The position numbers and the translations under genes are program-made. The notes beneath the pieces are model-generated. The model searched no databases. It was not told where the DNA came from and worked only from the letters and a program-made list of their open reading frames with translations. From assembly GCA_951406725.2 (NCBI GenBank), contig OX597818.1, positions 6,138,001 to 6,202,000 on the forward strand: DNA of 64,000 nt. The letters run 5' to 3'. The stretch comes from Octopus vulgaris. Lineage: Eukaryota. Every line of letters starts with the position of its first letter. Positions within the stretch are counted from its first letter, which is position 1. Positions 6,385 to 63,999 of this stretch are shown piece after piece.

Positions 6385-6454
6385 GCCGGATAACTGACGA
6401 GATGGCGGCGTGGATTTCCACCTCGGTATTCGAAACTCGGAGTTTTATCATGGC
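6385..6454 (+). ncRNA. Type I hammerhead ribozyme
   Basis: GATAA(6389)-CTGACGA-G...GTGGATTTCCAC...C-GAAA-CTC-G-GAGT-T-TTATC(6449). Stem I GATAA/TTATC extends with GCC/GGC. Canonical core, G-C closing stem II, stem III ACTC/GAGT, GUU site at 6444. Confidence 0.75.
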
Positions 6455-6683
6455 TACCGAATAATTGTCACATATTACGTTTACATATGTATATATATAT
6501 ATATATATATATATATATATATATATATATATATATATAGTGTACATTTAAACACAAGAGAAAACTACCCTTTAACACGTATTTTTTAAACGCTAGAAGA
6601 AGCAGTCAAAACGACCAAAACAACATTTAATAGCAATTGTCGAAGGAAATGAAGAATTATAACTTTTACCTTGTTATATTTTG

Positions 6684-6754
6684 CGGTTATACCTAGGTTT
6701 CAAATTTCTTTAGCAAATAATATAATTTTCTGGGCGAATTCTCATCAGTTACCG
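6684..6754 (-). ncRNA. Type I hammerhead ribozyme (copy 1)
   Basis: Minus strand: CGGTAA-CTGATGA-GAATT...AATTT-GAAACCTAGGT-A-TAACCG. Canonical core, palindromic stem III ACCTAGGT, GUA site. Confidence 0.8.
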
Positions 6755-6796
6755 GCCTTAACAACTAAATTATAATTCAGAGATAAATAACACGTA

Positions 6797-6860
6797 TTGA
6801 TTGATTGATTGATTGATTCTAGTTTCAGCTCATGAGCTGTGGCCATGCTGTGGCACCGCC
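6797..6860 (-). mobile_element. Severely 5'-truncated LINE/SINE 3' tail with (TCAA)n end
   Basis: Minus strand GGCGGTGCCACAGCATGGCCACAGCTCATGAGCTGAAACTAGAATCAATCAA matches the LINE 3' end at 30683. It is absent from the sister tandem copy at ~7330. Confidence 0.75.
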
Positions 6861-7220
6861 ATTATCTCATCATTATATGTTATAAGTTTTCAAAATTCAG
6901 CGCGCAAGCACATTTCAGTTGGCAGCGATTGGATAATGCCGAGCTTATTCCTCGAGAATGCTAAGATCATATTCGTAAGATACATATATAGGGTAGCGAA
7001 TATTCTTAGAAATATCACCACCAGTAGTCTTGCATGTATAAATAGTCAATAGACAACATATTCTCAATATAAAATAGTGCACATTTAAACCCATGAGGAA
7101 ACTACCTTTTAACAGGTAATTATTACACGCTAGAATAAGCAGTCAAAACGACCAAAACCACATTTAATAGCAATTTTCGAAGGAAATGAAAAATAAAAAC
7201 TTTTACCTTGTTATTTTTTG

Positions 7221-7292
7221 CGGTTATAACTAGGTTTCAAATTTCTTTAGCAAATAAGATAATTTGCTAGGCGAATTCTCATCAGTATATCG
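7221..7292 (-). ncRNA. Type I hammerhead ribozyme (copy 2)
   Basis: Minus strand: CCGATATA-CTGATGA-GAATTCGCCTAGCAAAT...ATTTGCTAAAGAAATTT-GAAACCTAGTTATAACCG. One mismatch in stem III. Confidence 0.65.
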
Positions 7293-7435
7293 GCCTTAAC
7301 AACTAACCTATAATTCAAAGACAAATAACACGTCCTCATCATTATATGTTATAATTTTTCAAAGTTATGATCTTAGCATTCTCGAGGAATCACCTCGGCA
7401 TTATCCATTTACTGCCGACTGAAAATGCGCTTGCC

Positions 7436-7503
7436 GATTACTGATGAGAATTTGCTTAGCAAATTATTGTCTTTGCTAAAGAAATTTGAAACCTAGTTAT
7501 AAC
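7436..7503 (+). ncRNA. Type I hammerhead ribozyme (inverted copy 3)
   Basis: GATTA-CTGATGA(7441)-GAATTTGCTTAGCAAA...TTTGCTAAAGAAATTT-GAAACCTAGTTATAAC. Confidence 0.6.
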
Positions 7504-60190: not shown

Positions 60191-60629
60191 TTGTCATACT
60201 AGTAACAATTATTATTATTTTGTATTATTAGTTCAGAACTGATATTCCAGTTAAAGAATAAATTGTACCCCAGGTGAGGAATAAATTGAATTCACAATAA
60301 CAATTTTCTATACAACATATTTTGCTTTTTTCTTCCAATATGTAAGGAAAAATTTAATTCCAAGGCAACGCCGGGTGCCTCTGCTAGTAAATATATATAT
60401 TTATATATGTATATATGTATATATATACATATATATAAGTATTTATATGTGTAATTATATATATATATGTATATATGTATGTGTATATATATATATATAT
60501 ATATATATATATATATATATATATATATATATATATATATATATATATGTATGTACTTACATAAAAACTAAAAACGAATGCAAAAAGGGACAAGAAAAAA
60601 CAAGGGCGGGTCATTCGGAGTTTTGTACG

Positions 60630-61778
60630 ACTCTCTTATTCTTTCCTTCTTCCTTTCTATCAGCCCCTTCACACTTTCATCGTTCTTTCCGCTCTTCTTT
60701 CTTTCATTCCCCTCTCTCACAATTCCAGTCTTTCTCTTCATTCTGAAGTTCCTCCTCTTTCACCTCACTCTGTCCCTTTTCCTTCTTTCTCGTCCCCCCA
60801 AATTCTAGTATCTCTGCCTCTACCTCTCTCCTCTCTCTCCCCGTGACCAGTGTTCGACCAAGCCTGACCTTTCTTGGTTCGACTACCAACCGGGCAACAT
60901 CTATATTCCTCCCCATGCCTGTCATATCTTATGTCCCTGCCGTAAGGTTTCACTTCCACATTTGCCAGCTTAATTTAATTCGTTAGTAGTCGGAGGACAC
61001 ATGTTGTTAACGTCCTGTTATTTGCATTTGTATTTGTCTACCATTTCTCTGTTTTTTTCGTCCTTGATTTCGTATCCATTCGCTGCTTTCTTGTAAGAAC
61101 TCTAGTGCTCTTGGCTTAGTTTTTCCTTGAGAATGGCTGAAATTGCAAACATAATATGGAACTCGATTGAGAAAACTCCAAATGAACCGTCCATGTTTTT
61201 TCTTGTCTCGTTTTTGTATAATCTCTCTGGTGTTTTTTGTCCCTTTTTCGTGTCATCTAACTGTCTGGATGCTTTGTGTTCTTGTCCCATTTTTGGCATT
61301 CCTTTTTATGTATTTATATGTATGTATATATGCGTGTGTGTATTTGTACCCCCATCATCGCTTGACAACCGATGTTACTTCGCTTACGCTCCAATAACAT
61401 AGCTGTTTGGCAAAGCAAACCGATAGAATAAGTACTAGGCTTACAAAGAGTAAACCCTGGAGTTGAATTCTTCGAATAAAGGCGGTGCTCCAGCATGGGC
61501 GCAGTGACATGGTTGAAAAAGCAAAACAATAGGAAACTCTCTTATTCTTTCATTCTTCCTTTCTATCAGCCCCTTCACACTTTCATCGTTCTTTCCGCTC
61601 TTCTTTCTTTCATTCCCCTCTCTCACAATTCGGTTTTTTTCTTAATTCTGACGTTCCTCCTCTTTCACCTCACTCTGTCCCTTTTCCTTCTTTCTCGTCC
61701 CCCCAAATTCTAGTATCTCTGCCTCTACCTCTCTCCTCTCTCTCCCCGTGACCAGTGTTCGACTAAGCCTGACCTTTC
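60630..61778. repeat. ~240-bp near-identical direct repeats (60630-60873 and 61536-61778)
   Basis: CTCTCTTATTCTTT...CCCCGTGACCAGTGTTCGAC.AAGCCTGACCTTTC occurs twice. Confidence 0.9.
61320..61520 (+). mobile_element. SINE 3' half with LINE-derived tail
   Basis: Homologous to 10060-10215. Ends in GGCGGTGCTCCAGCATGG..CAGT..GGTTGAAA, like the LINE 3' end at 30683. Confidence 0.75.
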
Positions 61779-62547
61779 AAACTGATAATATATCAGTTTG
61801 AAAAAATATAGTCACGAAATACGTATAGTCTTTTTACCAATTATATACTATTTATTTATTATTTTGTACTTTACTCAATTATTGGTATATGTTTTATCGT
61901 ATATTTAATTTTTTCTATATTGTATGATTTAATTATATCATTGTTGAATTGATACATGGTTCTTCTCTAATTTAGATACATATACATACATACATACATA
62001 CATACATACATACACATACATATATATATATATATATATATATATATATATATATATATATATATAGGCTATATCAAAAGTCTGAGCGCTATATAAATTG
62101 TAGCAGTACGGACACTTAATATATAATTGCCAACCAAGTGTGGCATTCCTATACAGGACAGCGCTACTGATGTTTATTGCTTCAGGATGACATCTCCTGC
62201 AGCTTGCTAACAACAACATTCTGGTTAGTATTTGCGAGGGATGGGTACACACACACACACACACACACACATATATATATATATATATATATATATATAA
62301 TTATTATAAATGAGGGTGAAAAATCGGTATTAATTTAATAATACCATTAATTTAACACCAAGTGGCTTAGCACAAAAAACTACGGAGAAAATACAAATTT
62401 ATACATAAATTATTAGAGAGTTATCCACTATGTGGATAACTCTAGTGCTAAAAATAGCTCCGAAGCAACCACAGAAGAACAGTTTCCAACTAGAATCAAC
62501 ATACATTTGACGGAGGGAAAGTGAAATACAACGAATAAAATAGATTG

Positions 62548-62623
62548 ACTCTATACAATTGTTTCATTACTAATGTAATATGTAGTTTTACTTACACTCA
62601 CATCTATAAATCTTCGGTAGAGT
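62548..62623 (-). ncRNA. Type I hammerhead ribozyme, U4C core variant
   Basis: Minus strand: ACTCTA-CCGAAGA-TTTATAGATGTGAGTGTAAGTAAAACTACATATTACATTAGTAAT-GAAACAATTGT-A-TAGAGT. Perfect 6-bp stem I, palindromic stem III, GUA site. Confidence 0.7.
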
Positions 62624-63581
62624 TTGTCAGAAATGCAATTAATTAGATCGATTCGAGCGTCAAAAACACGAGCGGTCCAACCAATTACATTTTTAGTTAT
62701 GTCTCAAATTCCGCGCCAAAAACATGCCTAGACTCCATTGGAAACGTATGCCGCATCAAATAAAATATTGACTGCCGCGTAGTTAAATTTATAAAATTAT
62801 AAATGAGGGTGAAAAATCGGTATTAATTTAATAATACCATTAATTTAACACCAAGTGGCTTAGCACAAAAAACTACGGAGAAAATACAAATTTATACATA
62901 AATTATTAGAGAGTTATCCACTATGTGGATAACTCTAGTGCTAAAAATAGCTCCGAAGCAACCACAGAAGAACAGTTTCCAACTAGAATCAACATACATT
63001 TGACGGAGGGAAAGTGAAATACAACGAATAAAATAGATTGACTCTATACAATTGTTTCATTACTAATGTAATATGTAGTTTTACTTACACTCACATCTAT
63101 AAGATTTATAGATGTGAGTGTAAATAAAACTACATATTACATTAGTAATGAAACAATTGTATAAAGTCAATCTATTTTATTCGTTGTATTTCACTTTCCC
63201 TCCGTCAAATGTATGTTGATTCTAGTTGGAAACTGTTCTTCTGTGGTTGCTTCGAGCTATTTTTAGCACTAGAGTTATCCACATAGTGGATAACTCTCTA
63301 ATAATTTATGTATAAATTTGTATTTTCTCCGTAGTTTTTTGTGCTAAGCCACTTGGTGTTAAATTAATGGTATTATTAAATTAATACCGATTTTTCACCC
63401 TCATTTATAATTTTATAAATTTAACTACGCGGCAGTCAATATTTTATTTGATGCGGCATACGTTTCCAATGGAGTCTAGGCATGTTTTTGGCGCGAATTT
63501 GAGACATAACTAAAAATGTAATTGGTTGGACCCTCATGTTTTTGACGCTCAAATCGATCTAATTAATTGCATTTCTGACAA

Positions 63582-63657
63582 ACTCTACCGAAGATTTATA
63601 GATGTGAGTGTAAGTAAAACTACATATTACATTAGTAATGAAACAATTGTATAGAGT
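63582..63657 (+). ncRNA. Type I hammerhead ribozyme, U4C core variant (mirror copy)
   Basis: Same motif as 62548-62623, on the plus strand. Confidence 0.7.
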
Positions 63658-63942
63658 CAATCTATTTTATTCGTTGTATTTCACTTTCCCTCCGTCAAAT
63701 GTATGTTGATTCTAGTTGGAAACTGTTCTTCTGTGGTTGCTTCGGAGCTATTTTTAGCACTAGAGTTATCCACATAGTGGATAACTCTCTAATAATTTAT
63801 ATATATATATATATATATTGTATAGAGGGCATTATTACACATAAATGCCTCACACTAAGAGGGACAAAGTCATTACTACCAAAATTACACTAATCATACC
63901 TAAATGCTGTTCTTCAAAGCAAGACATTTAAAAAATGAATTT

Positions 63943-63999
63943 AGTTCTGTATCACCGTGATTTCACATTTAACTTACGTCTATGATCCTCAGCAGAACT
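63943..63999 (-). ncRNA. Type I hammerhead ribozyme
   Basis: Minus strand: AGTTCTG-CTGAGGA-TCATAGAC-GTAA-GTTAAATGT-GAAA-TCAC-G-GTGA-TA-CAGAACT. Perfect 7-bp stem I, canonical core, GNRA-capped stem II, 5-bp stem III, AUA site. Confidence 0.8.

What the first reader, a model, noticed from the sequence alone, without database searches (positions are those of the whole stretch)
6385..63999. Each ribozyme family uses a different palindromic stem III: a possible dimer-specificity code
Seen stem III sequences: ACTC-G-GAGT (6435), ACCTAGGT (6691), ACACGTGT (1017, 18431), ACCATGGT (44957), ACGT (49407, 50383), ACAATTGT (1748, 62555, 63643) and ATCAC-G-GTGAT (63951). Loops are 0-1 nt, too tight to close fully in a monomer. 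Known: minimal hammerheads of newt satellite 2 and PLEs cleave as dimers through a self-complementary stem III. Inference: cleavage needs two copies of the same family, as in a tandem transcript. Lone insertions would then be nearly silent and tolerated, and the palindrome would keep families from cross-activating.
Basis: partly seen in the sequence, partly recalled or inferred. Interest (0 to 1): 0.7.

Follow-up and report, generated by a model that had tools for sequence, protein, structure and literature searches.

The report
Penelope hammerheads; palindromes shared, no code
These short palindromes belong to hammerhead self-cutting RNA motifs left by Penelope-like jumping genes, a known kind that likely cuts in pairs, but unrelated families reuse the same palindrome, so it is not a family code; any family recognition would come from a second helix acting together with it.

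Summary
All 11 palindromes are at the stated places. Ten belong to real type I hammerhead repeat families (eight copies keep a core, one has a mutated core, one lost it); 1748 is not a ribozyme. Palindromy is real: in families I found without requiring it, the four loop letters that cannot pair in a monomer are self-complementary in 10 of 14 (p about 5e-9), and natural tandem copies of families I, J and E are predicted to pair stem III between copies (0.82-0.99). That dimer model is published. Stem I must also swap between copies and blocks 31 of 34 stem-III-compatible cross pairings. A sister of family A ends a protein-coding Hydra-type Penelope element. Most copies are lone or inverted and decaying; their silence is untested. 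The scan reached the same verdict before on other DNA of this genome and two other genomes.

The parts
6389..6449 (+). Family A hammerhead: core CTGACGA at 6394, stem III ACTC-G-GAGT 6435-6443, H17 = U at 6444, stem I GATAA/TTATC
   Evidence: sister A' ends a Hydra-type PLE ORF
6684..6754 (-). Family B hammerhead, copy 1: core 6748, stem III ACCTAGGT 6698-6691, H17 = A
7221..7291 (-). Family B copy 2, direct repeat 537 nt from copy 1; decayed stem III ACCTAGTT 7235-7228
7435..7505 (+). Family B copy 3, inverted; decayed stem III ACCTAGTT 7491-7498
1010..1097 (-). Family C hammerhead, old copy with mutated core CTGATGG at 1091; stem III ACACGTGT 1024-1017
1591..1665 (+). Family C inverted partner, decayed (ACAAGTGT 1642-1649, no core)
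1748..1755 (.). Not a hammerhead: private palindrome in the body of the family C element
18425..18518 (-). Family D hammerhead: core 18513, 65-nt stem II region, stem III ACACGTGT 18438-18431 (same as C), stem I GCGG/CCGC in relatives
44950..45039 (-). Family E: 5'-truncated copy with fold-back; stem III ACCATGGT 44964-44957 and ATCATGGT 45025-45032 (+); no core on either arm
49400..49446 (-). Family F minimal hammerhead: core 49441, stem III ACGT 49410-49407, H17 = U; truncated inverted partner at 49815 (+)
   Evidence: GIY-YIG-like ORF remnant 184 nt upstream in L233
50355..50392 (+). Family G minimal hammerhead with variant core CTGTCGA at 50360; stem III ACGT 50383-50386 (same as F)
62290..63814 (.). 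Family I: 98% inverted duplication about 63102 of a 493-bp tandem unit; complete hammerheads (core CCGAAGA) at 62617-62555 (-) and 63588-63650 (+); core-less upstream copies with stem III at 63055-63048 (-) and 63153-63160 (+); stem III ACAATTGT
63943..63999 (-). Family J hammerhead: core 63992, stem III ATCAC-G-GTGAT 63961-63951, H17 = A, 7-bp stem I
4273..4888 (+). Decayed remnant of a Penelope-like RT ORF (33-39% identity to the A' protein, E 2e-16); link to the nearby family A copy not shown

Best explanation
The sites are type I hammerhead motifs in the end repeats of many Penelope-like retroelement families, whose self-complementary stem III likely lets two copies in one tandem transcript fold a double hammerhead and cut; the palindrome is shared between unrelated families, so family recognition, if any, would come from stem I and stem III together. 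Steps: (shown) motifs, family structure, palindromy beyond chance, sharing of palindromes, link of A'/A, C and F to RT-GIY-YIG ORFs or remnants, mostly lone or inverted decaying copies. (Predicted) in tandem RNA copy 1's stem III pairs with copy 2's, each core's 5' flank pairs with the other copy's 3' flank, and each core cuts the other copy at H17, releasing unit-length RNA; a core-less upstream copy, as at 63055 and 63153, could still be cut by the downstream core. (Inferred) palindromes differ because any self-complementary sequence after A15.1-C15.2 works and lineages drift through paired changes; cross-family insulation is a by-product of divergence and of pairing in cis, not a selected code.
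For: 47 hits vs 1-7 in controls. Inner four letters self-complementary in 10 of 14 unseeded 8-nt families, 8 of 10 merged lineages, p 5e-9 and 4e-8. Unconstrained folding of natural tandems: inter-copy stem III 0.99, 0.95, 0.88 (family I), 0.82 (J, one pair seen in two overlapping loci), 0.94 (E); changing one copy's palindrome drops it to 0.0, changing both restores 0.93-1.0; lone-copy hairpin 0.00-0.04. Sister families keep palindromy through two-sided changes: B/E CTAG vs CATG (71% over 105 nt), D/F21 ACGT vs ATAT, F24/F41 GATC vs AATT, F19/F40 TATA vs CATG. Sharing: 12 of 25 palindromic families, 18 distinct sequences; twelve 8-mers on 8 of 16 options, random mean 8.6, P(all different) 0.003. 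Of 600 ordered pairs among 25 families, 34 are stem-III compatible, 21 have cross stem I >=4 bp, 3 have both and all 3 are between sister families. A' hammerhead 191-464 nt after the ORF stop in 21 of 25 PLE loci, 76-83% identical to window family A. Published dimer data: PMC4209133, PMC7229834.
Against: Predicted cross stem I is weak in the same folds (0-0.12 for I, 0.69 for J, 0 for E and A), and three natural tandems show little or no inter-copy helix (window B pair 0.0, J in L179 0.0, A in L198 0.4). For ACGT families the bimolecular dimer gains nothing (+0.4 to +0.9 kcal/mol per strand). J can close 4 bp as a monomer (-2.7 kcal/mol at fixed structure), and a coral retrozyme hammerhead cuts efficiently as a monomer (PMC7229834). 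Family F9 (12 copies) has a non-palindromic hairpin stem III. Tandem copies are rare except in family I. No ORF link was found for B, D, E, G, I, J. In the one reconstituted PLE, cleavage needed the element's protein and was dispensable for insertion (PMC11167929). Nothing here measures cleavage.
Confidence: 0.8

Rival explanations
1. One reading: each family has its own palindrome, selected to prevent cross-activation.
For: 18 distinct palindromes among 25 families; a mismatched palindrome abolishes the predicted inter-copy helix; 18 of 21 ordered pairs with compatible stem I differ in stem III.
Confidence: 0.05
2. The gate is the element's protein: the ribozyme folds only inside the PLE ribonucleoprotein (monomer or dimer), and cleavage is of little importance for spread; palindromes are kept mainly by ancestry.
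For: PAc hammerhead cuts only with the PLE protein and is dispensable in vitro (PMC11167929); low activity even as dimers (PMC4209133); family G is the most frequent motif in the random sample although most copies read CTGT-N-GA in the core; a high-copy PLE family here has no detected hammerhead in 18 loci; ACTC-N-GAGT recurs from coral to this genome.
Against: Two-sided changes between sister families argue for ongoing selection on pairing; not exclusive with the dimer model.
Confidence: 0.25
3. The longer palindromes (8-11 nt) work as monomers with a 2-4 bp stem III and 3-4 nt loop; only ACGT families need a partner, so lone copies are not silent.
For: Fixed-structure cost of closing the monomer hairpin is between -2.7 and +2.9 kcal/mol for the 8-11 nt palindromes; monomer cleavage by short-stem invertebrate retrozymes is published.
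Against: Ensemble probability of the hairpin 0.00-0.04 in six lone window copies; a monomer gives no reason for loop letters to be self-complementary.
Confidence: 0.15
4. Palindromes act at the DNA level (protein site or integration signal), not in RNA pairing.
For: Palindromes are typical protein sites (general knowledge); insertions are often inverted.
Against: They sit exactly between GAA and H17, vary freely in sequence and length (4-12 nt), and tolerate an unpaired centre.
Confidence: 0.03

Closest known systems
Minimal and palindromic-helix-III hammerheads of metazoan PLE pseudo-LTRs (Cervera and de la Pena 2014, PMC4209133; parts 1-2 of 4 read)
   Same: Type I, short stem I, large stem II, extra base after A9, palindromic 15.2-16.2 and loop 3, many heterogeneous families per genome, mostly single copies, some inverted pairs 100-700 bp apart, U3-A8 core variant; monomer inactive, dimer weakly active in vitro.
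   Different: Here many families have 8-11 nt palindromes and stem II regions up to about 80 nt; cores CCGANGA and CTGTNGA are family-wide; no activity measured.
Hydra-clade PLEs (Craig et al. 2021, PMC8557442; section 11, passages and supplement part 2 read)
   Same: The ORF beside A' has DKT, CxCx5C linker, CxxC and CxH, RWK where intact, C-terminal GIY-YIG, about 717 aa, 3' hammerhead; stem III ACTC-N-GAGT as listed for Hydra-2_aMil, Hydra-1/2_aJap, Penelope-3_HM and Penelope-16_HM.
   Different: Not the listed Hydra-1_oBim motif (acca-a-tggt, other stems); no tree against reference Hydra proteins was built.
PLE-associated small hammerheads that cleave as dimers (Lunse, Weinberg, Breaker, RNA Biol; not held; known only from its title and from citing reviews PMC6765202 and PMC6466107)
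   Same: Palindromic loop III plus tandem arrangement needed for cleavage.
   Different: Could not check whether that paper tested heterodimers or discussed family specificity.
Non-LTR retrozymes (PMC7229834 passages; bioRxiv 10.64898/2026.07.22.740005 part 1 of 5) and newt satellite 2 / ASBVd double hammerheads (Forster 1988, via reviews)
   Same: Family I forms head-to-tail arrays of a 493-bp unit, up to six copies seen, one hammerhead per unit; J has about 460-478 bp repeats.
   Different: Unit longer than the 150-450 bp reported; circular RNA not tested.
Repeat-type hammerheads in Perreault et al. 2011 (PMC3088659, passages)
   Same: Fig. S8 legend already notes palindromic stem/loop III across several ribozymes allowing dimers.
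   Different: Figure itself not seen; no family-sharing statistics in the passages read.

Membership tests
Type I hammerhead ribozyme | Core CUGANGA ... GAAA ... UH with stems I and II | tested here: met
   Families A, B, C, D, E, F, J by relatives; 8 window copies keep a core. I has CCGAAGA, G has CTGTNGA (variants).
Type I hammerhead ribozyme | Match to an Rfam hammerhead model | tested here: not met
   0 hits at gathering score; short stem III and long stem II fall outside the models.
Type I hammerhead ribozyme | Self-cleavage 3' of H17 | not testable with these tools
   Needs an in vitro assay or raw RNA reads.
Double (dimer) hammerhead | Self-complementary stem/loop III beyond chance | tested here: met
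   10 of 14 unseeded 8-nt families, p 5e-9; two-sided changes between sisters.
Double (dimer) hammerhead | Tandem same-strand copies that can pair | tested here: inconclusive
   21 of 30 loci for I (overlapping loci from fewer arrays), 0-4 of 30 for the other seven families within 1.5 kb; predicted inter-copy stem III high in I, J (one pair), E, low in B, A and a second J pair.
PLE pseudo-LTR hammerhead | Hammerhead 3' of an RT + GIY-YIG ORF on the same strand | tested here: met
   A' 21 of 25 loci; remnants upstream of A (L200), C (L065, L079) and F (L233). Not found for B, D, E, G, I, J in 3-kb loci.
PLE pseudo-LTR hammerhead | 5' truncation with inverted partner copy | tested here: met
   Inverted-only loci 4-16 of 30 per family; window B, C, E, F, I.
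Hydra clade (A' element) | DKT, CxCx5C linker, CxxC and CxH around the EN, RWK | tested here: met
   DKT 16 of 25, CxCx5C 25 of 25, CxxC 24 of 25, CPH 22 of 25, MRWK 3 of 25 loci (loci are cut at 1.5 kb and often truncated); Pfam GIY-YIG only E 0.018, under cutoff.
Hydra clade (A' element) | Placement in the Hydra clade by RT phylogeny | not tested
   No reference proteins were put in a tree.
Non-LTR retrozyme (family I) | Non-coding tandem units each with a type I hammerhead | tested here: met
   493-bp spacing, up to six copies on C1; no PLE ORF match in its loci.
Non-LTR retrozyme (family I) | Expressed as linear and circular unit-length RNA | not testable with these tools
   Only contigs of runs not on record as RNA were offered.
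   12 of 25 share; 8 distinct among 12 against random 8.6.

The most novel reading that the evidence does not exclude
Stem I and stem III together form a selected two-part address: each Penelope lineage's double hammerhead cuts only its own tandem RNA and that of its truncated or non-coding derivatives, giving one genome a natural library of dozens of near-orthogonal two-copy RNA switches (3 of 600 cross pairings compatible, all between sisters) while lone insertions stay uncut.
Probability: 0.1. Interest if true: 0.5.

Novelty: new member of a known kind. Interest (0 to 1): 0.2.

Why it matters
The family table is still a ready test set for an open point, the role of hammerheads in Penelope elements: natural pairs with the same stem III and different stem I (C/D, F/G, A'/F57), the reverse (F23/F19, F40/F19, F11/F16), and sisters with a swapped palindrome (B/E) separate the contributions of the two helices. 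If orthogonality held in vitro the set could serve as two-input RNA cutting parts.

Tried and rejected
Rfam scans: no hammerhead, only microsatellite-driven miRNA noise. Genome search for family G returned nothing (the tool skips very common words), so G was studied from 42 copies in fetched DNA. A PLE ORF beside family D in L041 proved unlinked: no conserved hammerhead after the stop in 18 loci of that protein family. Pfam found no family in 24 short ORFs upstream of hammerheads, picked by eye from 212. Sequencing runs: no RNA holder listed; four contig sets laid on 63330-63999 list no other letter inside the I or J stem III but cannot show ends or expression; not used as evidence. The random sample could not be enlarged beyond 978 kb, so the census is a sample. 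Cluster F12 was dropped as an overlap artefact of family E, and 30 clusters with 1-2 copies were left out of the 30-family counts. Paper searches for a published family-code or heterodimer test (also 38) listed none, but the key Lunse paper is not held and bioRxiv supplements are closed, so absence from print is not shown. PMC13282606 (passages) gives PLE counts for an octopus genome and does not mention ribozymes; the taxon of this window is only my guess from genome size and repeat make-up. Rejected: 1748 as a ribozyme; 44957 as an intact ribozyme; ACATGTGT (F10, F15) counted as non-palindromic although it pairs with G-U wobbles.
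Full report
Setting. The window is G000:C5:6138001-6202000 of a 2.8-Gb animal genome, 34% GC and rich in microsatellites and decayed mobile elements.

Observation. All 11 palindromes are present. I searched the genome with each site (nine searches gave 30 loci each, the G search gave none) and aligned relatives. The sites resolve into nine hammerhead families: A 6435, B 6691, C 1017, D 18431, E 44957, F 49407, G 50383, I 62555/63643, J 63951. Eight listed copies keep a core, 1017 has a mutated core, 44957 lost it by 5' truncation and fold-back, and 1748 is body sequence of the family C element with a private substitution. 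Rfam does not detect any of them.

Is palindromy real? A descriptor that asks for core, stem II, GAAA, any 0-14 letters, UH and stem I, but no palindrome, gave 47 hits in 978 kb of evenly spaced genome stretches (28 palindromic) against 6, 2, 7 in shuffles and 1 in reversed sequence. Over all fetched DNA, 363 hits fell into 60 clusters; with A' added and copies assigned by best match, 30 families had three or more copies (one artefact and 30 smaller clusters left out). Of these 25 have a palindromic most-common stem III, two have a wobble palindrome, two look decayed and one (F9) has a true hairpin. Sister families change both halves together (B/E, D/F21, F24/F41, F19/F40), whereas variants within a family mostly break the palindrome, often at CpG, as expected for decay after insertion.

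Dimer fold. In natural tandem RNAs folded without constraints the two palindromes pair with each other with probability 0.88-0.99 (three family I pairs, two of them in the window), 0.82 (one J pair) and 0.94 (E); changing one copy gives 0.0 and changing both restores 0.93-1.0; lone copies form the hairpin at 0.00-0.04. Against: the window's decayed B pair and a second J pair give 0.0, the A pair 0.4, and the cross stem I needed to complete the active site is weak in these folds (0-0.69). At fixed structure, monomer closure costs -2.7 to +2.9 kcal/mol for 8-11 nt palindromes, and ACGT dimers gain nothing in trans. These are secondary-structure models without tertiary contacts or protein.

Is it a code? 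No. C and D share ACACGTGT with F46; F and G share ACGT with F7; F24 and F26 share ACGATCGT; I and F41 share ACAATTGT; A' and F57 share ACTCAGAGT: 12 of 25 families, 18 distinct sequences. Twelve 8-mers use 8 of 16 possible AC....GT options; random draws give 8.6 on average and a strict code would need 12 (P 0.003 by chance). The published File S2 of PMC8557442 shows the same in one cnidarian genome: five families list actt-t-aagt and several also share stem I atgg/ccat. In a double hammerhead each core's 5' flank must pair with the other copy's 3' flank, so stem I is also exchanged (geometry; Fig. 1A legend of PMC4209133). Among 25 representative families (600 ordered pairs) 34 are compatible in stem III, 21 in stem I, 3 in both, all between sisters (I on F56, A with A'); stem I is not more divergent where stem III is shared. 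So insulation exists, mostly as two filters in series, with no sign that it was selected.

What the elements are. A recently expanded element with an ORF up to 717 aa (332 database homologs) carries a hammerhead 191-464 nt after its stop in 21 of 25 loci; this motif is 76-83% identical to window family A and differs in stem III only at the unpaired centre. Its motifs match the published Hydra-clade definition. ORF remnants also lie upstream of A, C and F copies; the clade name Penelope/Poseidon for the F remnant is recalled, not tested. Family I forms 493-bp head-to-tail arrays like a non-LTR retrozyme. No ORF link was found for B, D, E, G, I, J, and another abundant PLE family showed no hammerhead.

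Lone copies. Within 1.5 kb, same-strand partners exist in 21 of 30 loci for I but 0-4 of 30 for the others; the rest are lone or inverted (loci are the best matches to the window copy, some overlap). Inverted partners lie on opposite strands and cannot dimerise in cis; the 1.5-kb inverted duplication of family I would likely fold as one long hairpin (inference). That lone copies are nearly silent is plausible and, for minimal motifs, reported in vitro (PMC4209133), but untested here; tolerance is equally explained by lack of transcription, decay and protein dependence (PMC11167929).

Literature seen: PMC4209133 parts 1-2 of 4; passages of PMC6765202, PMC7229834, PMC3088659, PMC11167929, PMC6466107, PMC13282606; PMC8557442 passages, section 11 and supplement part 2; bioRxiv 10.64898/2026.07.22.740005 part 1 of 5. 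Lunse et al. and Forster et al. were not read. Earlier scan notes reach the same verdict on other DNA; they are not independent support, and one pointed me to the Hydra clade and File S2, which I then checked.

Verdict. Real motifs, known mechanism, proposed code refuted as stated. New member of a known kind; interest 0.2.

Noticed in passing
window 50360-50366 (+) and family G copies in L274, L283, L302, L310, L317, L318, L342, L351, L356, L360: Family G, the most frequent motif in the random sample (12 hits in 978 kb), mostly reads CTGT-N-GA in the core, i.e. U in place of the conserved A6; it may have spread with a weakened or dead ribozyme.
   Followed up: partly
window 62617 and 63588; families I, F7, F25, A': Several young or abundant families carry CCGANGA (C at position 4) family-wide.
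   Followed up: no
L196, L205, L134, L368 (families F11, F14, F19): U3-A8 core variant (TTGANAA) families with palindromes ACGCGT, ACCGGT, ACTATAGT.
   Followed up: no
L351, L368 (family F9): A hammerhead family with a 4-bp stem III and 8-nt loop, two copies 259 nt apart in L351: likely a monomer-competent retrozyme-like repeat.
   Followed up: partly
L017, L303 (families F13/F22); L177 (F42/F17): Within one lineage the palindrome centre gains 1-2 letters (ACGTACGT, ACGTAACGT, ACGTTGACGT), a possible path between dimer-type and hairpin-type stem III.
   Followed up: no
L271 about 7400-9830 (G000:C5, about 7-10 kb past the window end): Near-complete, frameshifted Hydra-type Penelope-like element with its 3' hammerhead; the family has many 94-97% identical copies with open frames up to 717 aa.
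   Followed up: yes
L371-L388, L041:1976-3156: Another high-copy RT + GIY-YIG element (open frames up to 1025 aa in the search table) with no hammerhead detected after its stop and a long microsatellite-like tail.
   Followed up: partly
window 26790-30666 (+): LINE-like element with endonuclease-like and reverse-transcriptase-like long frames (601 and 497 aa stop to stop); domain names judged by eye.
   Followed up: no
window 34057-37500 (-), 21378-21833 (-), 39003-39335 (-): Fragments of another non-LTR retrotransposon family; 16507-17458 and 41000-41600 look like mariner-type transposase remnants, 47969-48391 and 58907-59329 like helicase remnants of Helitrons (by eye).
   Followed up: no
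window 22932-25975; 30758-30857: 3-kb AT/AC microsatellite array; a 100-base assembly gap of N.
   Followed up: no
window 49456-49480 (-) upstream of family F core: A tRNA-like B-box-type stretch precedes the family F hammerhead; earlier scan notes describe a tRNA-derived promoter in such an element.
   Followed up: no
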